Translations under genes and position numbers: made by a program
Assembly: GCA_963733705.1 (NCBI GenBank)
Contig: CAVTEJ010000014.1
Coordinates: 10,943-74,942 of the forward strand
Length of the DNA stretch: 64,000 nucleotides
Reading direction: 5' to 3'
Origin: an uncultured Planctomycetota bacterium
GTDB taxonomy: Bacteria > Planctomycetota > Planctomycetia > Pirellulales > Lacipirellulaceae
Shown here: positions 1 to 12,437 of the stretch, one piece after another
Position numbering within the stretch: position 1 is the stretch's first letter
How the letters are laid out: every line of letters begins with the position of its first letter
The notes under the pieces: generated by a model
What the model saw: only the letters and a program-made list of their open reading frames with translations
The model's database searches: none
Told to the model about the DNA's origin: nothing

Positions 1-339
1 GAAATCGACGCACCAATCCACGGAAGCTTCGTCGAACGGCGTCGCCATGGGAATGCAGCCGGAGTCGCGAATCGCTTCAATGAGCGTCGCGTAATCACTT
101 TTGCTCATCTGCGTTTCCATTACGCGGCGAACATAGCGAATATCGGTGCGACTCTTGAAATCGTCGTGAATGAAGCTTTCGACGTCGCGAAATTGAACCT
201 TGATCGCAGCCCGAACATCGTTGGCGCGAACAACCTGCGCATGTTGCCGAACGATTTCGATTCCGCGTTCGAGCTGACCGAGATGATTATTCGTCATCTC
301 AAGGACGAATAAATCTTCGAAGATATCGCGAGACACCAT
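1..339 (-). CDS. NeuB-family (sialic/nonulosonic acid synthase-like) PEP-condensing enzyme; only the N-terminal 113 aa are present because the gene runs off the window start
   Basis: Own translation of the minus strand from ATG at 337-339: MVSRDIFEDLFVLEMTNNHLGQLERGIEIVRQHAQ...AIKVQFRD...SGCIPMATPFDEASVDWCVDF. This matches the NeuB/SpsE N-terminal pattern (E-x-x-x-NH-x-G, KxQ, TPFDxxSVD). It is absent from the ORF track because it is cut by the window edge. Confidence 0.6.
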   Translation of the reverse strand, partial: MVSRDIFEDLFVLEMTNNHLGQLERGIEIVRQHAQVVRANDVRAAIKVQFRDVESFIHDDFKSRTDIRYVRRVMETQMSKSDYATLIEAIRDSGCIPMATPFDEASVDWCVDF

Positions 340-364: not shown

Positions 365-1423
365 TTACAGCAAGTTGCGGCAATCCTCCAACAGGGTGGG
401 GACCGCTGTGGCATCCAATGCCACCTTCTCCATAATACCGGGCCGGCTGGAAAGGATAAACGTCACTTGCTGGCCCGTATTTTTCTTGTCTTGCTTCATC
501 GCGTCGACGATTGCTTCAAGCGGAACAGCCTTAAGCGTCGGTATAAATGCCGCGAAATACGGCCGCGTCCATTCCAAAACGCTTTCGAAATAGCTCGGAT
601 CCGCCATTTTCAGTCGCATGGCGAAATACGTGGCGCAGACTACGCCCATCGTGACCGCGATCCCGTGCGGAATTGCATACAGGGTTGCCGACTCGAACGC
701 ATGCGCAAACGTGTGACCGTAGTTGAGAATATTGCGGATTCCCAGGTCGAATTCATCCTCTTCGATAAACCGCTGTTTGATTTTCAGCGAATTCCAGACG
801 ATTTCGTCGAGTGGCAGCGCCGAAGCGTTCTTCGGTGCTAGCATATCTCGTAGCTTGGCAACTGATTCTCCACCGTCAATCAGATGCAGCTTTATCGCTT
901 CGCCGAGCCCGCTATATAACTCCTCCTGTTGCAAAGACCGGAGGTACTCAAAACACAGCCGAATTTCGTGCGGCGGGTAAAACGTGCCTAGTTGGTTTTT
1001 AAACCGATTGATGTTGAGCGAACTCTTGCTACCGATGCAGCTATCACACTGGGCGAGTAGCGTCGTTGGTATCAGCGTCCATCGAACGCCCCGCATCAAC
1101 ACCGAAGCAATAAAACACCCAATGTCCTGTAGTACACCGCCGCCGATAACGACGAGATTTGAACTTCGCCGGATTTTCCGCTCGAGCAACCAGCAGAAAA
1201 TCGGTTCCACTTGATCGTACGACTTCGCATGCTCCGAAGCATCAATGAAGTATGTCTGTGACGCGGGAACCGAGCCGGCGAATTGCTGCTCGTACAGTTG
1301 GGCTACTTTGCGATCGACAAGAAAGAAGGCGTTTTCGTGCTCTCGAATACCAGCGACGGTCGCGCGGGCATCGTCACATTCGACGACACTGTACGGATGG
1401 CTTTTGCTGCGGATGGTTAACAT
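365..1423 (-). CDS. 3-dehydroquinate synthase-like sugar phosphate cyclase family protein
   Basis: Track ORF 365..1435 starts at GTG. I prefer the ATG at 1423, 2 nt after the upstream SDR stop. Motifs: VVIGGGVLQDIGCFIAS (Gly-rich nucleotide loop), NYGHTFAHAFE and IPHGIAVTMG (metal-binding His), all typical of the DHQS superfamily. Confidence 0.75.
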   Translation of the reverse strand: MLTIRSKSHPYSVVECDDARATVAGIREHENAFFLVDRKVAQLYEQQFAGSVPASQTYFIDASEHAKSYDQVEPIFCWLLERKIRRSSNLVVIGGGVLQDIGCFIASVLMRGVRWTLIPTTLLAQCDSCIGSKSSLNINRFKNQLGTFYPPHEIRLCFEYLRSLQQEELYSGLGEAIKLHLIDGGESVAKLRDMLAPKNASALPLDEIVWNSLKIKQRFIEEDEFDLGIRNILNYGHTFAHAFESATLYAIPHGIAVTMGVVCATYFAMRLKMADPSYFESVLEWTRPYFAAFIPTLKAVPLEAIVDAMKQDKKNTGQQVTFILSSRPGIMEKVALDATAVPTLLEDCRNLL

Positions 1424-1425
1424 GA

Positions 1426-2123
1426 TCAAAGGCACGTAAATCCGCCATCCGCGACCAGAACCTGGCCGGTAATGTACGTATTATCTTCGCTGCACAGGAA
1501 TGCGACAAACTTGGCGATTTCGGCCGGCTCTGCAAGTCGGCCAACAGGAATCGTTTCGGCAATCCGTTCTAAATCTTCGTCAGAGTTGTTCTGCCGTGTT
1601 AGCTCTGTCCCCACATATCCAGGCGCGACGCAATTCACCAGCACGTTATCACGCCCCATTTCGACCGCCATCGTCCGCGTTAGGCCCGCCAGCCCAGCCT
1701 TCGTGGTCGAATAAGCGGCGCGTTGTGCCCGCGTGACAATTCCAAAGATCGAACTCATGTTTACGATTCGGCCCCATCCGCGCCGCGCATCTGCGGCGCA
1801 ACTGCCTGCGCCAAGCGAAACGGTGCCGTGAGATTGGTCTGCAGCATACTCTGCCATGTGTCCGACGCAATCTTCTCAAACGGATTGACGAAATTGATGC
1901 CCGCGTTGTTGACCAAGATATCGATTGTTTTTCCGTCGTCGTCCAGAGATTGAATATATCGTTCAATCGAGTTTGCGTCCGACAGGTCGAGCGCCTGCCG
2001 TGGTGGCGTCAACACTTGCATGCCGCGTTCGCGTAATTCGCTCGCGATCGCCGCGCCAATTCCTCGGCTGCCGCCTGTAACTAACGCTGTACGCCTCGGT
2101 TTAATCTTTGCTGCATTAGCCAT
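1426..2123 (-). pseudogene. Classical short-chain dehydrogenase/reductase (FabG-like), split by one frameshift
   Basis: ORFs 1761..2123 (TALVTGGSRGIGAAIA, NNAGI) and 1426..1857 (GRIVNMSS, YSTTKAGLAGLTR, VNCVAPGY) lie in different frames. Together they make one complete SDR. The frame switch is near 1775-1800. Confidence 0.75.
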
Positions 2124-2163: not shown

Positions 2164-4023
2164 CTAACGAGCCGCTAGCGGCGGTCTTGCATGAGGTTGA
2201 GGCCCCGCCTCACAATCGTCCACGGTCGGCACAATCATGTTCGCTCGCAATTCATCGCGATCGAGAAACGGCGCCATGTCTTCCAGCGGTGTGCTCACAA
2301 TCTCTCCACTCGCCAATCGCCGCGAACTCGATCGCGGCGCAAATCCCTGTTTCAAATCGAGCATGACTTCGCAAATCACAGGCCCATCGGCGCCAAGCGA
2401 ATTAGCGATTTGTTGTTCCAACTCGTCATGGGTTGCGCAGCGAGTGAACTCGATTCCGAATGCACTCGCGAGCCTCTCAAAACTCGGAAACGAGAGGCCC
2501 GATTCCACATCACAACCAACCACATTGTCCGGAAAGAAGCCCCGTTGCGTCTGGCGAATCGAATGATAGCCCTGGTTATTCAAAACAAAAATCTTGATCG
2601 GCAATCGATGTCCGACAATCGTTTGCAGCTCCTGCAGGTTCATCATCACGCTGCCATCCCCTGCAATGCAAACGATCCTTTGCCCGGGGCGTGCGAAAGC
2701 GCAGCCAATCGCCGCGGGTAGATCGTAGCCCATCGATGCACAGCCAGAATTGTGAAATAGCCGCTGATCGCGACGAATGAACGCCGCCTGAAACGCGGCG
2801 ACGCAGGCGGTCCCGTCGCCGGTCGCGACGATTTCGCCCTCACCCAGCTGGTCGAACAGGGACTGCATGAAGCAGTACGGATTAACGCCATCTGCTTCGA
2901 TCCAATATTCGGGCAGAACAACAGGGTATTTTTCCTGCCGCTCTTTGCACCAACCCAGCCACTCTCGCGGCGGTTCGACGGCTCGCTCTTCCGCTTTGAA
3001 TTGCAACATCGGCAGAAAATCGCGCAGGTCCGCATGAATCGGTAAATCAATTTCGCACGTCGGCTTCCGCATTTCTTCCGCGTCGATGTCGACCGCGATC
3101 TTATACGCCGCTCGCGCAAACGCCTTCCAGTTGTAACTCACTTGCCGCATGTTGAGTCGCGTGCCGAGCATCAGCAGGCAGTCGCTATTTTGCACAGCGA
3201 AATTCCCAGGCCGATCACCGATTATTCCAGGCCGCCCAGCAAACAGTGGATGCTCATTCCACAACAGATCGTTTGAATTCCACGCGGTCACCACCGGCAC
3301 GCCAAGCGTCTTAACGAGCGTCAAAAATTCTTCGTAACAGCCGCTCAACCGGATTCCCGAGCCTGCATAAATCACAGGCCTTTCCGCCGACCGCAACTTC
3401 TCTAGCACCAGATCACAAGAGGCCGACAAGTTCGGCGTTTCCCAAGCAATTTCATCTTCCACCGAATCGTATCCCACTAAGTCATCGGGATCGATTTCCG
3501 AACCTTGCACATCAACCGGCACATCGATCCAGCACGGGCCAGGCCGGCCGCTCTTCGCCAAGTGAAGTGCACGCTCCAAGTGATACCGAATCGATCGCGG
3601 ATCATCGACCGTCACCGCATATTTGGTGATGCCGCGCACCATCCCCACGATATCCGCTTCCTGATCACCAAGCTGACGAAGCTTGCCGATCAAGCCGTTC
3701 TTGTAGAGCGTCGTTTCGCGGCGCACCTGCCCGGAAATCACAAGCATCGGGACCGAATCCACCCACGCGCCAAACACACCGTTAAGCGAATTGATGCCGC
3801 CCGGCCCCGTCGTCACATTGACGACGGGCACCTCGCCCGAAATTCGCGCGTAGGCCTCCGCGGCCATCGCTGCAGCTTGCTCGTGATGACAACAGACGTA
3901 CTCCAATTCGCTGCATCGCCCAAACGCATCATTCAAGTGCATCGCTCCGCCACCTGTCACCAAAAAAACGTGGCGAGTGCCGTGTTCTACCAGCCATTGC
4001 ACAATGTAGTCGGCGAGGCGCAT
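2164..4023 (-). CDS. Thiamine-diphosphate-dependent enzyme, acetolactate synthase large-subunit-like (candidate YerE-like sugar carboligase)
   Basis: Track ORF 2164..4065. The ATG at 4023 (MRLADYIVQWLVEHG) lies 17 nt after the upstream stop. The N-terminal Pyr domain has VTGGGAMHLNDAF and CHHEQAAAMAAEAYAR. The C-terminal PP domain has the ThDP/Mg motif IAGDGSVMMNLQELQT...VLNN. Confidence 0.85.
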   Translation of the reverse strand: MRLADYIVQWLVEHGTRHVFLVTGGGAMHLNDAFGRCSELEYVCCHHEQAAAMAAEAYARISGEVPVVNVTTGPGGINSLNGVFGAWVDSVPMLVISGQVRRETTLYKNGLIGKLRQLGDQEADIVGMVRGITKYAVTVDDPRSIRYHLERALHLAKSGRPGPCWIDVPVDVQGSEIDPDDLVGYDSVEDEIAWETPNLSASCDLVLEKLRSAERPVIYAGSGIRLSGCYEEFLTLVKTLGVPVVTAWNSNDLLWNEHPLFAGRPGIIGDRPGNFAVQNSDCLLMLGTRLNMRQVSYNWKAFARAAYKIAVDIDAEEMRKPTCEIDLPIHADLRDFLPMLQFKAEERAVEPPREWLGWCKERQEKYPVVLPEYWIEADGVNPYCFMQSLFDQLGEGEIVATGDGTACVAAFQAAFIRRDQRLFHNSGCASMGYDLPAAIGCAFARPGQRIVCIAGDGSVMMNLQELQTIVGHRLPIKIFVLNNQGYHSIRQTQRGFFPDNVVGCDVESGLSFPSFERLASAFGIEFTRCATHDELEQQIANSLGADGPVICEVMLDLKQGFAPRSSSRRLASGEIVSTPLEDMAPFLDRDELRANMIVPTVDDCEAGPQPHARPPLAAR

Positions 4024-4040
4024 TCGAAAAATCCTTGATC

Positions 4041-5114
4041 TTAAGCCGCGTTGCCACGGCGGCATTCATGCCATTTGAAAGTTCGCTCGATGGCGGATTG
4101 GAAATCGGTTGCGATCGTTAGGCCGAGCTCATGGCGCGCCCGCTCGATGGACGGAACATAGTGCGACGGCGGATTTGTACTCGCCGCGACGTCGCCGCGA
4201 ATGTCGACTTCACAACCGGCCAAATCGGCGACGGACCGCGCCACATTTGCAATCGAGATCGCCTCGTCGCTCCCAACGTTGTAGGCACGGCACGATTCGC
4301 CTTGCAGCAAAATCGTCCATAACCACGCAGCCAGGTCGGCCGCGTACATGTACGACCGATAATCGTGACCCGCACTCCGCACAACCACTGGACCGCCGTC
4401 CAGCGCGTCCCGCAAAAAATTGCCGATCGCGAAATGCCGATCGAGTGGCAAGTACGGACCTACAAATGCAAAACAACGAGCGATCGAATTCTTCATGTCC
4501 CGGTGGTAATGCGCCTCACCGCAAAGCATCTCTGCCACTCGCTTGCCTTCGGCATACGCCGCGGCAGGCGAAAGTGGATTGGGGCCGCCAGTGAAATCCT
4601 CACGGACATGCGTCACGCCTGCCGGTTGCTTTCCGTAAACGGCGCCCGAACTCGCCAGCAGCAATCTCTCGGCTCCGCACCGCTCGCAAAAAGCGAGCAC
4701 ACGTCGCGTTCCGTCAACGATGACGTCAAACATCACCCGCGGGTTTTGCTCATTGAGCGCCGCGCTCGCCTCTGTGGCCGCATGAATGACATGTGTAAAC
4801 AAGCCGTCTGGAAAATCGAAATTACGCACATCCCCAGTTTGAAAGCGAATGCCTTCACAATCCGCCAAATGCGGCATGTCGAGCAAAAATCGCTGCGGAT
4901 CGCGAGTGAGCGCAACAAGTTCGGCCTCGAGCTGCAGTTCGGCATTCGCAAAAACGAACGTCTCCAGCAACCACTTTCCGAAGAAACCGGTCCCGCCGGT
5001 CACAAACAACCGTCCGCCGCGCAGCTGTTCCCACATCGGCAGCGTGTGGCTTAACAAGCTTTGCAAGTCCTCACTCGGAAGAACGGACGATGTGGCAATC
5101 AAACCCTGCGTCAT
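4041..5114 (-). CDS. NAD(P)-dependent epimerase/dehydratase family (extended SDR) protein
   Basis: 357 aa with Rossmann motif [14 protein letters not shown] and YAEGK (YxxxK). The start ATG overlaps the rfbH stop (ATGA at 5111-5114). Confidence 0.85.
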
Positions 5115-6490
5115 TGAGACACAAACTCACGAATCGAGGCGGCGATGTATTCAATCGCCACAGGCGAAAGCCCCGGAAATACGCCCAGCCAAAACACCCG
5201 ATGCATAGCGAAATCAGAATTCTCGAGATTTCCGACGACTCGGAACTCGCAATGCTGATACGCCGGCTGGTGAATCAAGTTACCAGCAAACAACAGGCGG
5301 GTGCCAATTTTCCGCATCCCAAGATGTTTAAGCAGGTCCTCACGCGAGAACTTCGCGGCCGGCCGCACGGCCATCGGAAAACCGAACCAACTCGGATCCG
5401 ATCCTTCGGTCGCCATGGGCAGCAGAAAGATATCTTGAAGGTCGCTGAGCGTATCCCCTAGTAACTGGAAATTCCGTCGACGTGCCGCAATGAAATCTGG
5501 CAACTTCTTCATTTGGGCAACGCCGATCGCGGCCTGCATATCGGTTGCCTTCAAGTTGTAACCAATCCGCGAGTAGGTGTACTTGTGATCGTAGCCGAAC
5601 GGCAATGATCCAAGTTGCCAGCCGAAGCGCTTCCCACACGTGTCATCCTTGCCCGTTTCGCACCAACAATCGCGGCCCCAATCTCGCAACGACTCGGCAA
5701 TCTTTTTAAGCCGCGGGCTATTCACGAGCACCGCCCCGCCCTCCCCCATCGTGATGTGATGCGCCGGATAAAAGCTGCATGTCGCCAGATCTCCAAACGT
5801 GCCAACTTTCTGACCTTTGTAGGTTGCTCCGATCGCGTCGCAACAATCCTCGATCAGCCACAAATCGTACTTTTTCGCGAACGCTACAACGGCATCGAGA
5901 TTAAACGGGTTGCCCAGCGTATGGGCAATCATGATCGCCTTTGTCTTCTCGCTACGAGCGGCTTCAAGCGCTGCCACGTCGATGTTGTAGGTTCCTAGCT
6001 CGATATCCACGAACACCGGCACGCAACCCGTCTGGATGATTGGGTTCACCGTCGTCGGAAAACCCGCGGCCACCGTAATAACTTCATCGCCCGGCCGCAC
6101 TCGATCATCGCCAAGCGTGTGATCCATCAGAACCGAAAACGCAATCAAGTTCGCACTCGAGCCCGAATTTACGAGCAGTGCGAAACGCACTCCCATCAAC
6201 TCCGCAAATTCAAATTCGAACTGCCCCGCGTACCGGCCCGAAGTCAGCCAAAAGTCGAGCGAACTATCGACAAGTGCCGCTAACTCGTCCCCGTCGAACA
6301 CTCGCCCACTTACCGGCGCCGCCGATTGACCTGCAACAAAATTCTTCTGCGGCCAACGGGCCGCGTGGTACGCACGCGTTAGCTCCAGTATCTGGCGCCG
6401 CAGTTCAACCGGATCTTTTGCCGAAACATCGTCGGATGTTCCATTGTCACAAGGGCCGACTATCGTCGATTGATTTGTTCCAGCGGTCAT
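5111..6490 (-). CDS. rfbH: CDP-6-deoxy-L-threo-D-glycero-4-hexulose 3-dehydrase (E1), DegT/RfbH family
   Basis: 459 aa. Long colinear match to my memory of Yersinia/Salmonella E1: [50 protein letters not shown] (His replaces the PLP Lys), RDWGRDCWC...[35 protein letters not shown]. Confidence 0.9.
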
Positions 6491-6537
6491 ATCACGTTCG
6501 CTTCCTGCTTAATCACCACGATCGGTAGGATTCCGTC

Positions 6538-7674
6538 TTACGCGGCAGCCGCTGTGAATTGGCCCGCGCCACGTTGGTGGTGTGCTCTCGCCTCACACGA
6601 GTAGTCACGAATGTCGTCGAGGCACGCCTCCAACATCGATTTTCCATTCGAGTCTTGGAATCGACGATACCACCGTGCCGTATACTCAACCGTTTGATCG
6701 AGAGACCAAATCGGCTCCCAGCCTATCTCCGCCGCTTTGGTAATCGCGAGTTTCAACAGACCCGCTTCGTGAGGCTGGCTTCGGTCACCGACGTATTTCC
6801 ACGTTCCCCCACCCCAAGCCGCACAAAAACGTTCGACCAATTCGCTGACACAACAAGTCCCTGCGTCGTCCGGTCCAAAATTCCACCCGCCGCACAGTTC
6901 CGGCTCATCGGAAGACATCAGTTGCGCCACGAGTTGCAAGTAACCATGCAAAGGGGCCAGCACGTGTTGCCAAGGCCGGACCGCGCGAGGATTTCGCAGC
7001 GGCACGGGGCGTCCTGCAGTTAGATGAGCAACGATATCCGGCACGATTCGCTCGCGCGCCCAATCGCCCCCGCCAATCACGTTCCCGGCTCGCACCGTCG
7101 CCAGCTTAACGGCGTGTTCATCTACTCGAGACGGCGAAAAATACGACCGCCGGTACGAAGCGGCAAGTAACTCCGCCGCACCCTTACTAGCGCTGTACGG
7201 GTCATATCCGCCCATTGCATCGTCTTCACGATACGGCCGTTGCGATTCGATGTTTTCGTAACACTTGTCGCTCGTGATGACGACCACGACGCAAGGTTTT
7301 TGCCGCAAACGAACCGCCTCCAGCAAATTGCATGTTCCCATAATGTTCGTGTCGAACGTATCGCGCGGCGATGCGTAGCTCTCGCGTACGAGGGGCTGTG
7401 CCGCTAGGTGGAAAATCACATCCGGATTGGCATCATCAATCGCGCGCCCAACGTCATCGGCAGAGCGAATATCGCCGATTGAGTGGCGATCGATGATCTC
7501 CTCAACCCGCGACGCCGCGAAGTTCGACGGCGATGTCGGCGGCGCAAGTGAATATCCGCTCACCCGAGCACCAAGTTCGTGAAGCCAAATCGAAAGCCAC
7601 GAACCCTTGAAACCCGTGTGCCCGGTTACGAAGACAGATTTCCCGCGAAAATCACTATTAAAAATCGCTTGCAC
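6538..7674 (-). CDS. rfbG: CDP-glucose 4,6-dehydratase
   Basis: FRGKSVFVTGHTGFKGSWLSIWLHELGA, ITSDKCYEN and YSASKGAAELL are typical of RfbG. The track ORF extends to 7998 but would then overlap rfbF. I chose the GTG at 7674 (VQAIFNSDF), giving 378 aa. The exact start is uncertain. Confidence 0.85.
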   Translation of the reverse strand: MQAIFNSDFRGKSVFVTGHTGFKGSWLSIWLHELGARVSGYSLAPPTSPSNFAASRVEEIIDRHSIGDIRSADDVGRAIDDANPDVIFHLAAQPLVRESYASPRDTFDTNIMGTCNLLEAVRLRQKPCVVVVITSDKCYENIESQRPYREDDAMGGYDPYSASKGAAELLAASYRRSYFSPSRVDEHAVKLATVRAGNVIGGGDWARERIVPDIVAHLTAGRPVPLRNPRAVRPWQHVLAPLHGYLQLVAQLMSSDEPELCGGWNFGPDDAGTCCVSELVERFCAAWGGGTWKYVGDRSQPHEAGLLKLAITKAAEIGWEPIWSLDQTVEYTARWYRRFQDSNGKSMLEACLDDIRDYSCEARAHHQRGAGQFTAAAA

Positions 7675-7699
7675 GATTGTCGCCCTCGCTCTCAGTCGT

Positions 7700-8560
7700 C
7701 TATACGCCGACTCTTTCCAACAATTGCGCGACTGTGCGCCACCGCTGCGGAATTTGATCAGGCAGACCTGCAGTCGATTGATCCCAAACTTTCCATGGCG
7801 CTTCCCCACTTTGCCATTGCGCTTCGAGGCCCTGCCAATCGCGGTAGGTATCCATGCATTGCCAGAAACCTTGATGCTCAAACACGCCCAGGTTGCCGTC
7901 CGCCGCACACCGCTCAAGTGGGTCGGCTTCGAGGGTACAACCCAGCGTATCGTCGAAGTACTGCAAGAAATCGCGCTCGAAACAAAAGAAGCCACCATTG
8001 ATCAGCCCGCGGTGATGCTTTGGCTTCTCGGCAAACGACACGACGCGATCCCCTTCCGTTCGCAGCTCCCCAAATCGCGACGGCGGCCGCACACCAGTCA
8101 GCGTCGCCGCCATTCCATGCTGACGATGGAAGCGAAGGAGTTCGCCCAGGTTCACGTCCGATACGCCATCGCCATACGTCACCATGAACGTGTCGTCGCC
8201 ATCCAAATAGCGAGCAGCCCGCAAAATCCGGGCTCCCGTCATAGTGTTCTCACCCGTGTCGGCCAACGTCACCTGCCACGAATCATCAGAATCGCTGCCA
8301 TGCAGAGCGATGCCTTCCGACTCGTCCAACTTAATCGTGAAGTCGCTATTCATCGCCTTGTAATTGAGGAAATACTCCTTAATTACATGGGCTTTGTAAC
8401 CCAAGCACAGCACAAATTCGCGCACGCCATGAAACGCGTACAGCTTCATGATGTGCCACAGAATCGGCCGACCGCCGATCTCGACCATGGGCTTCGGGCG
8501 AAGCTCGGTATGCTCACGCAATCGAGTGCCCTGACCACCGCATAGGATGATGCATTTCAC
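7700..8560 (-). CDS. rfbF: Glucose-1-phosphate cytidylyltransferase
   Basis: MKCIILCGGQGTRLREHTELRPKPMVEIGGRPILWHIMKLY is the canonical RfbF N-terminus. GTG start preceded by an AAGGAG ribosome-binding site. Confidence 0.9.
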   Translation of the reverse strand: MKCIILCGGQGTRLREHTELRPKPMVEIGGRPILWHIMKLYAFHGVREFVLCLGYKAHVIKEYFLNYKAMNSDFTIKLDESEGIALHGSDSDDSWQVTLADTGENTMTGARILRAARYLDGDDTFMVTYGDGVSDVNLGELLRFHRQHGMAATLTGVRPPSRFGELRTEGDRVVSFAEKPKHHRGLINGGFFCFERDFLQYFDDTLGCTLEADPLERCAADGNLGVFEHQGFWQCMDTYRDWQGLEAQWQSGEAPWKVWDQSTAGLPDQIPQRWRTVAQLLERVGV

Positions 8561-8871: not shown

Positions 8872-9837
8872 TCACGTTCGATCAGCTTTGTCGGAAAACT
8901 CGACACCGATCGCGGACAGCAATTGATAGGAAGTTTGAAACGCGCCGCCGAATCGTGCCCGACGATGAGACGCACTCTGACCCATTCCCGAGCTGTTGAT
9001 GTGGTGATTAAACCGATCCGCCCGGTCGTGCGGTAGCCGAAATCGATCGGCGATATCGTGAAATCCGCCCGCGACATTTGGATATTGGCCGATGTAAGCG
9101 AACTTCTCGTTTACCAGGCGGGCCAGCATACGGCTCGAGTTTTCATCCTCGGGCGCTTCAAATCGCCGCACCGGGATCGGCTTCTCGCACAGCAGCCCGT
9201 AGAAATGATGGTAATAGTAGTATCGAAAAAACGGTTCTTCAGCAGCCATCTCCAAAAGCGTGTCGGTTGACACCTCTACGTCAGTCATCGCATCTACAAA
9301 TCGCGGAGCCCACCGCGCTCTTTCGAGAAAGTCGTTTTGTGCAGCTTGCGTGAAATTGGGCAACACCTGATGCAAATGCGCGACATCCGAGCAAAAGCGT
9401 TCGATCGGATCTCGTACGATCGTAGCGTAAACGATTCGATCTTCCCGCAAAAAACAGCTGATGTTTTGGGGCGTGTGGAGGTGAATCAGCGTCTCGCAGC
9501 GTTTCAGCAATTCCCGATGATCCGCTAACACATTGAGCGCATATTCCGTTGAGCCATAGTCCAATTGCGAGAGATAAAACAAGTCGACAATTGGAACTTT
9601 AATTGATGCGGCACTTCCGGCAAGCGCGTGCCATATAGATGAGCCGCCAGTCCTTGGAATGTGGTAAAAAACGAGATGTCGCGCATCTGGATTCAATGCG
9701 AAAAGCTGCTCGCGAGCTTCATCCCGTTGTTGCCGAGCCTCGTCGCGCTCACGAACCGCCTCGTCTCGTTCATCGGCAATTCGTTGCAGGTCTTGCTCAA
9801 GCGCGCGGCGGCGCTTCGTTTTGCGTAGAAAGGCCAT
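8872..9837 (-). CDS. Sulfotransferase family protein with an N-terminal charged coiled-coil
   Basis: 321 aa. LVFYHIPRTGGSSIWHAL resembles the HIPKTGGTS PAPS-binding loop of sulfotransferase family 2. The N-terminus is a RDEA/RQQRDEAR repeat helix. Confidence 0.6.
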   Translation of the reverse strand: MAFLRKTKRRRALEQDLQRIADERDEAVRERDEARQQRDEAREQLFALNPDARHLVFYHIPRTGGSSIWHALAGSAASIKVPIVDLFYLSQLDYGSTEYALNVLADHRELLKRCETLIHLHTPQNISCFLREDRIVYATIVRDPIERFCSDVAHLHQVLPNFTQAAQNDFLERARWAPRFVDAMTDVEVSTDTLLEMAAEEPFFRYYYYHHFYGLLCEKPIPVRRFEAPEDENSSRMLARLVNEKFAYIGQYPNVAGGFHDIADRFRLPHDRADRFNHHINSSGMGQSASHRRARFGGAFQTSYQLLSAIGVEFSDKADRT

Positions 9838-10246
9838 CTAGCTCCGTTCCAGAGAGCACCGCAGGGGAGTAAGTGGCGAATCGCACGTATCAACCCGGTA
9901 CGGACCGCGTTTACTAAACCCCGCTACGTACTGAAGGTTCTTGCTCTTTGCTCGCAACCACAACATGTGCGTCGCCGCGACCGATCGCCACATCTTCTCC
10001 GCGATCTTCTCGAAATCCATACCTTGCAAGTTTCGTGGAATCACGACCGACTTGCCACTTTTATAACAAGGGCACGTCCAAGCATCCGCAGAATTCGAAG
10101 CAAATATTACTCGCAGATTGTGGCGCACTCCGCTTGTTTTCGGTCCAAATATTATGCGGGGAATCGCCGCCGCGACGTTTTGGCCCTTCTCATCGAATCT
10201 GGCGAACTTCCGGCGATCTCGCTGGGCATTTCTCACGAGGAACAAA

Positions 10247-11089
10247 GTGAAAACCAATCTCTTCGCAATCATCGCAGCGCTCGTCTTTTCCACAACAACC
10301 TTCGCACACGGCGACGACGGCTTCGGCCATTCAGGTGATTTCGGGCTCGGCGGCCTGGGCGACCTCGGCCTCTCCGGCTTCGGCGGCCATCACGGCGGAT
10401 TCGGAGGCTTTGGCGGCGACCTGAGCATCAACCTCACCGATAACGTCGACCTCCTTCAAACGCATTTTCAAACTCGTTTCGACAGCCTCAAAACGAAATA
10501 CGACGATGGTGTGGCCAATACGACCGACTTCTTCACGTCCATCACGTACGACAATATCGTCAATAAGGCCCAGTCCCTAACCGACCGCTACGATTTTTTC
10601 GTCAATGGCGTGCAGAATACGATCGATCGTCTCGGCAATATGATTTCCAACGCCAATGACGATGTCACGTTCTACGCCAACCTGCTTACGAATTATCAAA
10701 GCGACACGAGCATTTCAGCCTCCAAACTCGGTCGCATCGAACTCGTGATCAACCGAATTACCGATCGATTGAATTCGAAGATCGATACGCTCTCGACCGA
10801 GCAAACCACGTTGCAAACGAATCTGCCAACTTACCAGACGTTTCAAACCGACCTGAATACGTTCCTGTCCGACATCCAAACCGCCGGCGGCAGCACAGGC
10901 ACAACCACTTCTGGCCTAAAAGCGATGCTAACTTCTCGCTCGCTCTCGGCATCCAGTAGCGCCAGTTTGTGCGATTCGTCCTCAACGCCGCTCACGTCGA
11001 CGTCCGTGCCCGAGCCTTCGTTCGTCGGCTTGCTGCTGATGGCAAGCGCAGGAATTCCACTCGTCCGACATCGCCGTCGCCGCAATTAA
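10247..11089 (+). CDS. Secreted Gly-rich/coiled-coil protein with PEP-CTERM anchor
   Basis: GTG at 10247 gives the signal peptide VKTNLFAIIAALVFSTTTFAHG. Then a GFGG-rich tract and a helical T/Q/N-rich region. C-terminus is VPEPSFVGLLLMASAGIPLVRHRRRRN. Confidence 0.7.
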   Translation: MKTNLFAIIAALVFSTTTFAHGDDGFGHSGDFGLGGLGDLGLSGFGGHHGGFGGFGGDLSINLTDNVDLLQTHFQTRFDSLKTKYDDGVANTTDFFTSITYDNIVNKAQSLTDRYDFFVNGVQNTIDRLGNMISNANDDVTFYANLLTNYQSDTSISASKLGRIELVINRITDRLNSKIDTLSTEQTTLQTNLPTYQTFQTDLNTFLSDIQTAGGSTGTTTSGLKAMLTSRSLSASSSASLCDSSSTPLTSTSVPEPSFVGLLLMASAGIPLVRHRRRRN

Positions 11090-11141
11090 ATGTCGCCGGA
11101 AAGCAACTAGTGCTCTGTCACGCTTGATTTGATGTGTAGCT

Positions 11142-11171
11142 GAACTCGCAAGAGTTCGGAAACCACCCGCC
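11142..11171 (+). repeat. Short variant of the recurrent 3' element (AACTCG...GGAAACCACCCGCC)
   Basis: About 50 nt after the stop of the plus-strand PEP-CTERM gene. It has the same orientation relative to its gene as the minus-strand copies. Confidence 0.3.
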
Positions 11172-11401
11172 AGCACTCTTCCGCACGAAGGCTTGCAATC
11201 AACTCTTGCGCAAAACTTCCAACGTCCCCTACGTAGGCGAGTTTCTCCGATCGAAGATTCGCCGTGGCGAAAACTCGCACCAAAACGGCTCGCCCCACGC
11301 GCCCCACGCCGCCACCCATCTATGTCCCAATGACCGGATCCGCGCTTGGCAACAAGAATCAATCCGGTATTTTCACCCCCGAGAGGGGCAACGAACTTAG
11401 C

Positions 11402-11421
11402 CGGTGGCTTCAGCCACCGGA
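11402..11421. repeat. Hairpin CCGGTGGCTTCAGCCACCGG
   Basis: 8-bp perfect stem with a 4-nt loop, just 3' of the IS110 transposase stop. Either REP-like or a terminator. Confidence 0.4.
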
Positions 11422-11468
11422 ACGCATTCGTTTAGTGCGGCCAAGCCCTGAAGCGACTGTGTTGATTT

Positions 11469-12437
11469 TCAAGTGGGCATTGCAGTATTCCTCCAAGGAG
11501 TTTTGTTACGCACCATGGCGTTTAGGATCGTAAGCAGTTTTCGCATGCAGGCGGTGATTGCTACGCGGTAACATTTACCTGCCTGGCGAAGACGAGTGTA
11601 GAACGTACGAATTTGAGGATTGCAGCGCATGGCATTGAAGGCTGCCATGTAGAGAGTGGCGCGAACGGCGCTGCGTCCGCCGAAGATCGTGCGGTGTCCG
11701 CGAAGCTTACCGCTATCACGATTGAGCGGTGCTACGCCGACGAGCTTGGCGATCTGCTTGTGGCCGAGCTCTCCTAACTCAGGCAGTTCCGCCAAGAGGG
11801 CGTGGCTGGTGGCCGTGGCGATTCCGGCAACTGACTGCAGAATCTGATCGCGCTCGCGCCACTGCTGGTCGCCTGCAATCAACTCGGCCAGCTGCTTGTT
11901 GACAGCGGCAATCTGTTCCTCCAGAACCGCGAGTACCGCCTCAATCGAACGCAGCAGTTCGTCACGCCGGGTCTGATGATGACGGTTCGTCTCGGCCGTA
12001 TGGAGTTCGATCAGTTGCCGCCGACGAGCGGCCAGGTCGGCGAAAAAACGCTGGTTTTCGCTCGCCAGAGGTCGCACCGCGGGCCGGATGTCGTGCGCGT
12101 AGCGGGCGATCACGCGCGCATCGAGCGCATCGGTCTTGGCTAATTCACCAACGGCAATCGCGAATGCACGCAGTTGCCGCGGATTGGCCAGAACGACCGG
12201 CAAGCCGGCTTCGGCCAGGTACGCCACCAGGGCCGTCTCATAACCACCGGTGGCTTCGACCACCACCAGCGCGGCGCCACGCATTGCCTCGACTAGCTCT
12301 TCGAGGCCCGACTCCGCATTCTCCACGGTGATCACTTGCGGAATGCCGTGGCAATTCGCGTCGAGCTTTTTCGACGCGACATCGACGCCCCAAAACGATC
12401 CATTGGACTCTCGATGGATCGTGTTAAAATCCTGCAT
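11469..12437 (-). CDS. IS110-family transposase (DEDD/RuvC-like N-domain plus Transposase_20 C-domain)
   Basis: ATG at 12437 (MQDFNTIH) with an AAGGAAGG RBS. Motifs: WGVDVASKKLD, VVVEATGGYE, KTDALDARVIARYA. C-terminal: LQSVAGIATATSHALLAELPELG...GVAPLNRDSGKLRG. Confidence 0.9.
   Translation of the reverse strand: MQDFNTIHRESNGSFWGVDVASKKLDANCHGIPQVITVENAESGLEELVEAMRGAALVVVEATGGYETALVAYLAEAGLPVVLANPRQLRAFAIAVGELAKTDALDARVIARYAHDIRPAVRPLASENQRFFADLAARRRQLIELHTAETNRHHQTRRDELLRSIEAVLAVLEEQIAAVNKQLAELIAGDQQWRERDQILQSVAGIATATSHALLAELPELGELGHKQIAKLVGVAPLNRDSGKLRGHRTIFGGRSAVRATLYMAAFNAMRCNPQIRTFYTRLRQAGKCYRVAITACMRKLLTILNAMVRNKTPWRNTAMPT

What the first reader, a model, noticed from the sequence alone, without database searches (positions are those of the whole stretch)
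2164..8560. CDP-3,6-dideoxyhexose core (rfbF-rfbG-rfbH) wired to an acetolactate-synthase-like ThDP enzyme: candidate branched-chain (yersiniose-like) sugar pathway
Seen: these are same-strand genes with gaps of 0-47 nt and one overlapping stop/start (ATGA at 5111-5114). rfbH carries [14 protein letters not shown], where the usual PLP lysine is a histidine. That is the signature of the PMP-dependent 3-dehydrase E1.

Established: RfbF, RfbG and E1/E3 make CDP-4-keto-3,6-dideoxyglucose. In Yersinia pseudotuberculosis the ThDP enzyme YerE, an acetolactate-synthase homologue, adds a two-carbon branch from pyruvate to that intermediate. The reductase YerF then gives yersiniose A.

Inference: the ALS-like gene (2164..4023) and the extended SDR (4041..5114) directly after rfbH fit a YerE/YerF-like step. 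I know of no description of such a pathway in planctomycete-type genomes. The E3 partner (ddhD/ascD, a 2Fe-2S flavoprotein) is not in the window.
Basis: partly seen in the sequence, partly recalled or inferred. Interest (0 to 1): 0.6.

Follow-up and report, generated by a model that had tools for sequence, protein, structure and literature searches.

The report
Branched-sugar operon with thiamine-dependent lyase
A soil planctomycete carries an operon that most likely builds a rare cell-surface sugar with a carbon side chain, using a thiamine enzyme that only looks like acetolactate synthase; the pathway type is already known in outline, though this version appears to get its side chain from an unusual source.

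Summary
Five co-directional genes lie on the minus strand, with gaps of 25, 47, -4 and 17 nt:
- rfbF, 7700-8560
- rfbG, 6538-7674
- rfbH/E1, 5111-6490
- an extended SDR, 4041-5114
- a ThDP enzyme, 2164-4023

RfbH has His at the PLP-Lys position and the E1 [2Fe-2S] motif.

The ThDP enzyme is not AHAS. It scores 341 bits against a cut-off of 538, and a true AHAS lies on another contig. Its closest solved relative is JanthE, a YerE-like ketone-accepting lyase (442 bits, against about 225 for AHAS).

In 80 related loci from about eight phyla the gene is linked to rfbF/G in 53, rfbH in 35 and the SDR in 45.

The yersiniose (C2, pyruvate) reading is probably too simple. The operon continues with a FabG-like SDR, a DHQS-like enzyme (TIGR04425), a NeuB-like synthase and transferases. 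NeuB-like genes (29 loci) and HpcH aldolases (22 loci) never co-occur. This suggests NeuB-like makes the 2-oxo-acid donor, as the aldolase is proposed to do for erwiniose and caryophyllose.

No canonical E3 exists in the 89.6%-complete genome. One FNR-Fer2 protein is a candidate, and E3 is missing from 31 of 35 related cassettes.

The scan met this cassette before on other genomes. I rate it a new variant of a known kind.

The parts
7700..8560 (-). rfbF, glucose-1-phosphate cytidylyltransferase (286 aa, GTG start)
   Evidence: TIGR02623 scores 343.7 bits against a cut-off of 300.25, with a full-length match. PF00483 also matches.
6538..7674 (-). rfbG, CDP-glucose 4,6-dehydratase (378 aa from GTG 7674)
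   Evidence: TIGR02622 scores 454.6 bits against a cut-off of 278. The start was reassigned to GTG 7674, which follows GAGGG, 25 nt after the rfbF stop.
5111..6490 (-). rfbH / E1, PMP- and [2Fe-2S]-dependent CDP-4-keto-6-deoxyglucose 3-dehydrase
   Evidence: NF011936 scores 711.8 bits against a cut-off of 423. His244 replaces the Lys that five DegT paralogues in this genome keep. The motif C217-X57-C275-X-C277-X7-C285 is present. 28 of 29 homologues in related loci share both features.
4041..5114 (-). Extended SDR, proposed side-chain ketoreductase (YerF-like role)
   Evidence: PF01370 matches, with GGTGFFG at 40 and YAEGK at 187. The best PDB match is UXS1 at 3e-27. Found in 45 of 80 related loci, usually directly upstream of the ThDP gene. 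One CDG-type (JanthE-like) locus has the same arrangement.
2164..4023 (-). ThDP-dependent carboligase of the JanthE / YerE-like class (619 aa)
   Evidence: PF02776, PF00205 and PF02775 all match. The score is below every AHAS cut-off. PDB 8rph (JanthE) matches at E 2.4e-131, 442 bits. HEQ lies at 47 and GDG-X24-NN at 455. The family forms a clade apart from AHAS.
1426..2123 (-). Classical FabG-like SDR, split in the assembly by a 1-nt frameshift near 1782/1783
   Evidence: Two overlapping ORFs carry the N- and C-terminal halves of adh_short. A 151-nt soil-metagenome unitig has one extra base there. With that base the gene reads as a 232-aa protein, 63.5% identical end to end to the L001 homologue. 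The gene is intact in a same-genus genome.
365..1435 (-). DHQS-like enzyme (TIGR04425, AroB-related putative sugar phosphate phospholyase, cyclizing)
   Evidence: TIGR04425 scores 406 bits against a cut-off of 400. The family keeps the DHQS residues that I map from memory to metal, phosphate and carboxylate binding. The housekeeping aroB lies elsewhere, on C24.
1..339 (-). 3' part of a NeuB-like PEP-condensing synthase (399 aa; continues 860 nt beyond the window's left edge, L081:10082-11281)
   Evidence: PF03102 and a SAF domain match. Scores are far below the PseI and NeuB cut-offs. The best PDB match is 3g8r at 1e-65. Present in 29 of 80 related loci and never together with the HpcH aldolase.

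Best explanation
The region is the nucleotide-sugar half and the branching step of an operon of about ten genes for an acyl-branched deoxysugar.

Steps assigned by homology:
1. RfbF makes CDP-glucose.
2. RfbG makes CDP-4-keto-6-deoxyglucose.
3. RfbH (E1) removes the 3-OH through PMP and its [2Fe-2S] cluster.

Inferred steps:
4. Electrons for E1 come from an unlinked reductase. The only E3-like protein is a 419-aa FAD-NAD-Fer2 fusion on contig C23. A general ferredoxin system is the alternative.
5. The ThDP lyase decarboxylates a 2-oxo acid and adds the acyl-anion equivalent to the C4 ketone. This gives a tertiary alcohol carrying a keto side chain.
6. The adjacent extended SDR reduces that side-chain ketone, in a YerF-like role.
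7. The donor is probably not pyruvate. It is more likely a longer hydroxylated 3-deoxy-2-ulosonic acid made from PEP by the NeuB-like synthase in the same operon.
8. The DHQS-like enzyme and the FabG-like SDR act on a phosphorylated, DAHP-like form of that acid. Whether they tailor the donor or make a separate carbocycle is open.
9. The downstream GT2 and a 504-aa protein of no known family would transfer the product to a surface glycan.
For: - Gene identities pass curated cut-offs.
- The E1 hallmarks are present, with in-genome controls.
- The ThDP enzyme scores 442 bits to JanthE (8rph). JanthE is a biochemically characterised, ketone-accepting YerE-like lyase that takes C3 to C6 2-oxo acids (PMC12188165, PMC12247030).
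- It is not AHAS. TIGR00118 gives 341 bits against a cut-off of 538, while the paralogue on C16 scores 696 bits. The family of 67 rows is split from AHAS by a branch with SH-aLRT 99.
- Among 80 related loci, rfbF or rfbG occur in 53, rfbH in 35 and the extended SDR in 45.
- NeuB-like genes (29 loci) and HpcH/HpaI aldolases (22 loci) never co-occur. They have swapped at least 7 times on the ThDP tree.
- The aldolase is the proposed donor-maker in the erwiniose and caryophyllose clusters. ErwE, for example, refuses pyruvate (PMC9306805).
- The DHQS-like/SDR pair occurs in 25 loci, 20 of them with NeuB-like or aldolase. Of the other five, three are on short or ending contigs and two have unclear ORF calls.
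- The DHQS-like family keeps the DAHP-binding residues.
- Synteny is kept in a same-genus genome.
Against: - No biochemical data exist for any close family member in its native context. JanthE's physiological substrates are unknown (PMC12188165).
- The enzyme is no closer to YerE proper than to AHAS (233 against 225 bits), so 'YerE-like' rests on JanthE and on gene context.
- No canonical E3 was found. The genome is only 89.6% complete.
- A DHQS-type enzyme would be expected to cyclise a DAHP-like substrate to a carbocycle that is not a 2-oxo acid. That fits poorly with a role in making the donor.
- The FabG-like SDR is frameshifted in the assembly. The repair rests on a single low-depth unitig.
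Confidence: 0.65

Rival explanations
1. It is a true yersiniose-type pathway. The ThDP enzyme uses pyruvate to add a C2 branch and the SDR gives a 1-hydroxyethyl group. The NeuB-like, DHQS-like and FabG-like genes make a second, separate glycan component, such as an ulosonic acid or a quinate-like cyclitol carboxylate.
For: JanthE accepts pyruvate among other donors (PMC12188165). The DHQS-like family keeps every DHQS catalytic and DAHP-binding residue, so it probably makes a carbocycle that cannot be a ThDP donor. About 29 of 80 loci show neither NeuB-like nor aldolase within 10 kb.
Against: NeuB-like or aldolase genes sit directly beside the ThDP gene in many loci and are strictly alternative to each other. 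Several of the loci lacking both are truncated contigs, or have the gene hidden by antisense ORF calls. In the studied erwiniose and caryophyllose clusters the aldolase product is the proposed donor, and ErwE rejects pyruvate (PMC9306805).
Confidence: 0.2
2. The extended SDR is a C4 ketoreductase that makes an ordinary CDP-3,6-dideoxyhexose (paratose or abequose type). The ThDP enzyme acts on a non-sugar ketone.
For: The extended SDR is most similar to nucleotide-sugar SDRs such as UXS and RmlB. JanthE is promiscuous towards non-sugar ketones in vitro (PMC12247030).
Against: The SDR and ThDP genes are adjacent in most of the 45 loci that have both, and in a CDG-type locus. The ThDP gene stays linked to rfbF/G even where the SDR is missing. 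No alternative ketone-producing pathway is apparent, apart from the DHQS-like module.
Confidence: 0.06
3. The cassette is a decaying, non-functional acquired island. It has no E3 and a frameshifted SDR, and IS elements lie nearby.
For: The gene is found in only 1 of 23 same-genus genomes and 1 of 17 genomes from other families of the order. The FabG-like SDR carries a frameshift. There is no canonical E3.
Against: All other genes have intact full-length frames with catalytic motifs. A metagenome unitig reads an extra base at the frameshift site that restores the frame. Another gene on C36, a flavohemoprotein, is split the same way, which suggests assembly indel errors. Absence of E3 is the rule in related cassettes.
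Confidence: 0.05
4. The ThDP enzyme is an acetohydroxyacid synthase for branched-chain amino acids that happens to lie next to sugar genes.
For: NCBIfam's best-scoring models are AHAS large subunits. Public annotations call homologues acetolactate synthase.
Against: It scores below all AHAS cut-offs. A bona fide AHAS is encoded on C16. It is only 33% identical to that AHAS, against 52-76% to cassette homologues. The two clades are separated with SH-aLRT 99. No ilvN-like small subunit was noted among its neighbours.
Confidence: 0.01

Closest known systems
JanthE (Janthinobacterium sp. HH01; PDB 8rph, 8rpi, 8rpj), a YerE-like ThDP lyase
   Same: The match is full length at 442 bits, E 2.4e-131. 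It shares the three-domain fold and the MMNLQELQ segment after the ThDP motif. A CDG-type homologue found here also has the extended SDR directly upstream.
   Different: The window enzyme and all 69 family members examined have the canonical GDG motif, not JanthE's CDG. JanthE's native substrates and pathway are unknown (PMC12188165).
YerE/YerF and DdhA-D pathway to CDP-yersiniose A (Yersinia pseudotuberculosis)
   Same: It has the same CDP-glucose, then 4,6-dehydratase, then E1 route. A ThDP enzyme is followed or preceded by an NAD(P)H reductase, and the ketone at C4 is the acceptor (PMC9306805, PMC12247030).
   Different: There is no DdhD/E3 in the cluster. The enzyme is no closer to PpYerE than to AHAS (assigning 5ahk to PpYerE is from memory). 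Extra donor-type genes argue against a pyruvate-derived C2 branch.
Long-branch clusters: erwiniose (ErwE/F/I/J), caryophyllose (MMAR_2331/2332), gastriose (MygE/F/I)
   Same: The logic matches: a C-C-forming enzyme makes a hydroxylated 2-oxo acid, which a ThDP enzyme couples to the CDP-4-keto-deoxysugar, and a reductase follows (PMC9306805). Related loci of this family carry the same type of HpcH/HpaI aldolase.
   Different: Here the aldolase is replaced by a PEP-dependent NeuB-family synthase, accompanied by a DHQS-like enzyme and a FabG-like SDR. I found no description of these in the papers I could read.
E1/E3 (AscC/AscD, DdhC/DdhD) and SpnQ
   Same: RfbH has the His-for-Lys change and the four-Cys [2Fe-2S] motif of E1 and SpnQ (PMC8987622).
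   Different: There is no dedicated E3. As with SpnQ, which works with general ferredoxin or flavodoxin reductase pairs, the reductant is not encoded in the cluster.
3-dehydroquinate synthase (AroB) and TIGR04425
   Same: The neighbouring DHQS-like gene passes the TIGR04425 cut-off and keeps all DHQS active-site residues.
   Different: It is a paralogue of the housekeeping aroB on C24, at 35% identity. It sits in a glycan operon and its substrate is unknown.

Membership tests
YerE-like ThDP-dependent lyases (decarboxylase superfamily) | Three ThDP-enzyme domains, a catalytic Glu and the GDG-X(24-27)-NN cofactor motif | tested here: met
   PF02776, PF00205 and PF02775 match. HEQ lies at 47 and GDG-X24-NN at 455.
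YerE-like ThDP-dependent lyases (decarboxylase superfamily) | Closest characterised relative is a member of the class rather than an AHAS | tested here: met
   JanthE (8rph) scores 442 bits, against 225 for plant AHAS and 221 for E. coli IlvB. JanthE is called YerE-like in PMC12247030.
YerE-like ThDP-dependent lyases (decarboxylase superfamily) | Specific sequence affinity to YerE itself | tested here: inconclusive
   PpYerE (5ahk) scores 233 bits, about the same as AHAS. I could not obtain YerE, ErwE or MMAR_2332 sequences for a tree.
YerE-like ThDP-dependent lyases (decarboxylase superfamily) | Genomic linkage to genes that make an NDP-4-keto-6-deoxyhexose | tested here: met
   rfbF or rfbG lie within 10 kb in 53 of 80 related loci, and rfbH in 35.
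YerE-like ThDP-dependent lyases (decarboxylase superfamily) | Carboligation of a 2-oxo acid onto a ketone acceptor | not testable with these tools
   This needs an enzyme assay.
Biosynthetic acetohydroxyacid synthase (IlvB/IlvI/IlvG) | Score at or above the curated equivalog cut-off, and being the genome's AHAS | tested here: not met
   TIGR00118 gives 340.7 bits against a cut-off of 538. The C16 paralogue scores 695.6 bits. The two fall in separate clades.
E1, CDP-4-keto-6-deoxyglucose 3-dehydrase (RfbH/DdhC/AscC) | Active-site His in place of the PLP Lys | tested here: met
   RfbH reads SFYPAHH, where five paralogues read SFxxxK. The feature is described in PMC8987622.
E1, CDP-4-keto-6-deoxyglucose 3-dehydrase (RfbH/DdhC/AscC) | Four-Cys [2Fe-2S] binding motif | tested here: met
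   C217-X57-C275-X-C277-X7-C285 is present. The exact spacing of the Yersinia motif is from memory of Agnihotri et al. 2004.
E1, CDP-4-keto-6-deoxyglucose 3-dehydrase (RfbH/DdhC/AscC) | Dedicated E3 reductase partner (N-terminal 2Fe-2S, FAD and NAD domains) | tested here: not met
   No such architecture was found in the 89.6%-complete genome. The only Fer2-FNR fusion (C23, 419 aa) has Fer2 at the C-terminus. It matches cluster-encoded E3-like proteins of L007 and L053 only at 3.9e-22 and 9e-10.
Yersiniose A pathway (DdhA-D + YerE + YerF) | Complete gene set including DdhD, with pyruvate as the C2 donor | tested here: not met
   DdhD is absent. A NeuB-like 2-oxo-acid synthase in the operon points to a longer donor. 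Donor identity itself cannot be tested here.
Acyl-branched sugar clusters of the 'unifying scheme' (PMC9306805) | ThDP enzyme, NAD(P)H reductase, a donor-forming C-C enzyme and CDP-deoxysugar genes in one cluster | tested here: met
   All four roles are filled. The donor-forming enzyme is NeuB-like instead of an aldolase. The two are mutually exclusive across 51 loci.

The most novel reading that the evidence does not exclude
The NeuB-like synthase, the DHQS-like enzyme and the FabG-like SDR form a small shikimate-like side pathway. It turns PEP and a sugar phosphate into an unusual donor, or into a ring, for the ThDP enzyme. The donor could be terminally deoxygenated or carbocyclic. The product would then be an undescribed class of C4-branched 3,6-dideoxyhexose, with a long deoxy-polyol or cyclitol branch, on the surface of Planctomycetes, Verrucomicrobia and others. 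It would be made by an E1 that routinely works without a dedicated E3.
Probability: 0.3. Interest if true: 0.7.

Novelty: new variant of a known kind. Interest (0 to 1): 0.45.

Why it matters
Acyl-branched sugars are rare surface determinants, known from Yersinia, Pectobacterium, mycobacteria and Rhodopseudomonas. Their ThDP lyases are sought as catalysts for chiral tertiary alcohols.

This locus belongs to the family of JanthE, the best-characterised such catalyst, whose natural role is unknown. The conserved gene neighbourhood found here gives a concrete hypothesis for that role and for the natural donor. It comprises CDP-deoxysugar genes, a paired reductase, and either a NeuB-like synthase or an aldolase.

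It also shows that the textbook E1/E3 pairing is the exception in these cassettes. And it predicts unexplored branched sugars in poorly studied phyla.

Tried and rejected
Contexts therefore came from the search for related loci and the genome search.
- I could not obtain YerE, PpYerE, ErwE, MMAR_2332 or JanthE sequences as usable records, so the tree has no YerE reference.
- The plasmid collection gave only AHAS-level hits of 33% identity or less.
- The two 2024 Angewandte papers, on JanthE and on the mining of more than 200 clusters, are not held. The supplement of PMC9306805 is not held either.
- No paper mentions TIGR04425.
- I followed the bradyrhizose cluster as a possible carbocyclic parallel. 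That paper names no ThDP or DHQS genes and centres on a dTDP-glucose dehydratase, so I dropped the lead.
- The public runs hold only small shares of the stretch. Most of it had no cover, and only the unitig across 1783-1925 was informative.
- A search for the CDG motif in 401 Burkholderiales genomes found one hit, on a 3.2-kb contig. That was too short for full context.
- The Atlas search for the 504-aa protein gave only unnamed clusters and a weak glycosyltransferase lead at 0.82.
- My idea that DHQS-like plus SDR simply deoxygenate the donor's terminal carbon is kept only as a possibility. As I recall, the DHQS intermediate cyclises spontaneously.

Full report
**Observation**

The minus strand of window 2164-8560 carries five tightly packed genes.
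- rfbF (7700-8560) scores 343.7 bits on TIGR02623.
- rfbG scores 454.6 bits on TIGR02622.
- rfbH (5111-6490) scores 711.8 bits on NF011936.

All three pass NCBI's equivalog cut-offs.

The longest rfbG ORF overlaps rfbF, but its domain starts at residue 117. A GTG at 7674 behind GAGGG is the likely start, which leaves a 25-nt gap. The other junctions are 47 nt, a 4-nt ATGA overlap and 17 nt. I found no convincing internal promoter or terminator.

RfbH contains [14 protein letters not shown]. Five DegT-family paralogues in the same genome have Lys where RfbH has His. 28 of 29 RfbH homologues in related loci share the His and a CxCx7C motif. The full spacing is C217-X57-C275-X-C277-X7-C285. The His substitution and four-Cys [2Fe-2S] binding are the E1/SpnQ hallmarks described in PMC8987622.

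**The ThDP enzyme**

The 619-aa protein has the three ThDP domains, the catalytic HEQ glutamate and GDG-X24-NN.

It is not AHAS.
- It scores 340.7 bits on TIGR00118, against a cut-off of 538.
- A paralogue on contig C16 scores 695.6 bits and is the genome's real AHAS.

Among solved structures the best match by far is 8rph at E 2.4e-131, 442 bits. Next come 5ahk at 233 bits and plant and E. coli AHAS at 221-225 bits. 8rph is JanthE, a YerE-like lyase from Janthinobacterium. It couples C3 to C6 2-oxo acids to ketones, and its physiological substrates are unknown (PMC12188165; PMC12247030).

In a maximum-likelihood tree, 67 family members form a clade separated from AHAS by a long branch with SH-aLRT 99. 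All members have GDG rather than JanthE's CDG. I could not include YerE itself. By score, the family is no closer to PpYerE than to AHAS.

**Context across genomes**

At least 584 species-level genomes encode a relative. The best 80 come from Planctomycetota, Verrucomicrobiota, Acidobacteriota, Bacteroidota, Myxococcota and many Pseudomonadota.

| Gene within 10 kb | Loci of 80 |
|---|---|
| rfbF or rfbG | 53 |
| rfbH | 35 |
| extended SDR, usually directly upstream | 45 |

Other recurrent neighbours are a polyprenyl-phosphate-type GT2 (40 loci), GtrA (23), a PMT_2 GT-C transferase (10), methyltransferases and Wza.

The cassette is patchy among relatives of this genome. It occurs in 1 of 23 same-genus genomes, with the same gene order, and in 1 of 17 genomes from other families of the order. 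Phyla are mixed in the tree. It behaves as a mobile accessory island.

**The operon is longer than the finding**

Downstream on the same strand lie:
- a FabG-like SDR (1426-2123);
- a DHQS-like enzyme that passes TIGR04425 (365-1435);
- beyond the window's edge, a NeuB-family synthase;
- a 504-aa protein without a family;
- a GT2.

The SDR is split by a frameshift. A 151-nt soil-metagenome unitig, identical over 143 nt, carries one extra base at 1782/1783. With that base the gene reads as a 232-aa SDR, 63.5% identical to the nearest homologue. A flavohemoprotein gene on C36 is split in the same way. I therefore read the frameshift as an assembly error, though on thin evidence.

**Where the branch comes from**

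In related loci the ThDP gene is accompanied either by the NeuB-like gene (29 loci) or by an HpcH/HpaI aldolase (22 loci), and never by both. The two have replaced each other at least seven times on the ThDP tree.

In the erwiniose, caryophyllose and gastriose clusters an aldolase is proposed to make the hydroxylated 2-oxo-acid donor. ErwE refuses pyruvate (PMC9306805). A PEP-dependent NeuB-type condensation gives the same kind of 4-hydroxy-2-oxo acid. The simplest reading is that NeuB-like is the donor synthase here, and that the branch is longer than the C2 of yersiniose.

The DHQS-like/SDR pair occurs in 25 loci. Twenty of these also have NeuB-like or the aldolase. Of the other five, three are on short or ending contigs and two have unclear ORF calls. 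In seven loci an FGGY kinase follows the pair.

The DHQS-like family keeps the DHQS metal, phosphate and carboxylate ligands: E. coli numbering R120, K142, N152, E184, K187, K226, R240, N244, H247, H251, H264 and K323. The functional mapping of these residues is from memory. This points to a DAHP-like ulosonate phosphate as its substrate. Whether the product is a tailored donor or a separate quinate-like carbocycle cannot be decided here.

**E3**

No Fer2 or FNR domain lies on the window's contig. The genome is 89.6% complete, and it holds no protein with the AscD architecture. The single Fer2-FNR fusion is a 419-aa protein on C23 with Fer2 at the C-terminus. It is the best match to the E3-like genes that two related cassettes do encode.

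Only 4 of 35 rfbH-containing loci have any FNR-like gene within 10 kb. SpnQ, an E1 relative, works with general reductase pairs (PMC8987622). The missing E3 is therefore typical of these cassettes and does not refute the pathway.

**Verdict**

The YerE/YerF-type step is supported through JanthE and through context. The yersiniose-specific details are not supported.

The kind of system is known. The NeuB-like and DHQS-like donor module appears undescribed in the literature I could read.

Earlier agents of this scan reached compatible readings on other genomes. My counts and tests were made independently of them.

Noticed in passing
window 1770-1790 (minus-strand SDR 1426-2123): A one-base frameshift splits the FabG-like SDR. 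A soil-metagenome unitig has an extra C after 1782, which restores a 232-aa frame. This is probably an assembly indel.
   Followed up: yes
G000 contig C36, L082:681-1914: An NO-inducible flavohemoprotein is split into two overlapping ORFs, one with the globin and one with the FNR half. This second apparent frameshift suggests that indel errors are common in this assembly.
   Followed up: partly
L081:8649-10163 (-), just left of the window: A 504-aa protein with no Pfam or NCBIfam family lies between the NeuB-like gene and a GT2. Homologues sit in five related cassettes. The Atlas neighbours are unnamed clusters, some from giant viruses, with only a weak GT-B glycosyltransferase lead.
   Followed up: partly
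window 8872-9837 (-): A 321-aa ORF lies 311 nt upstream of rfbF. It has only a faint Sulfotransfer_2 hit (E 0.097) and is absent from all 80 related loci.
   Followed up: no
L007:476-1486 and L053:7531-8460: Two related cassettes do encode E3-like reductases, but of opposite architecture. The Mucilaginibacter one has Fer2 at the C-terminus. The Sphingomonas one has Fer2 at the N-terminus, the canonical AscD type.
   Followed up: partly
related loci L011, L012, L015, L016, L017, L031, L039: An FGGY-family sugar kinase directly follows the SDR and DHQS-like pair. This hints that the substrate of the DHQS-like enzyme is phosphorylated within the pathway.
   Followed up: partly
L095 (G037:C19:77529-79334): The ThDP homologue in a same-order genome (46% identity) has an in-frame TGA. 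A NeuB-like gene lies upstream of it.
   Followed up: no
L079:586-2322 and 9998-11794: One Rhizobium-labelled MAG contig has two ThDP genes. One groups with AHAS and the other with the cassette family. Both sit on long branches.
   Followed up: no
sphingomonad loci such as L052, L056, L062, L071: The block order is very conserved: rfbF-rfbG-rfbH-aldolase-ThDP-HAD-epimerase-Wza-unknown-GT2-GtrA-unknown-PMT_2. This implies lipid-carrier-mediated periplasmic transfer of the branched sugar in bacteria that, as far as I know, lack classical LPS.
   Followed up: partly
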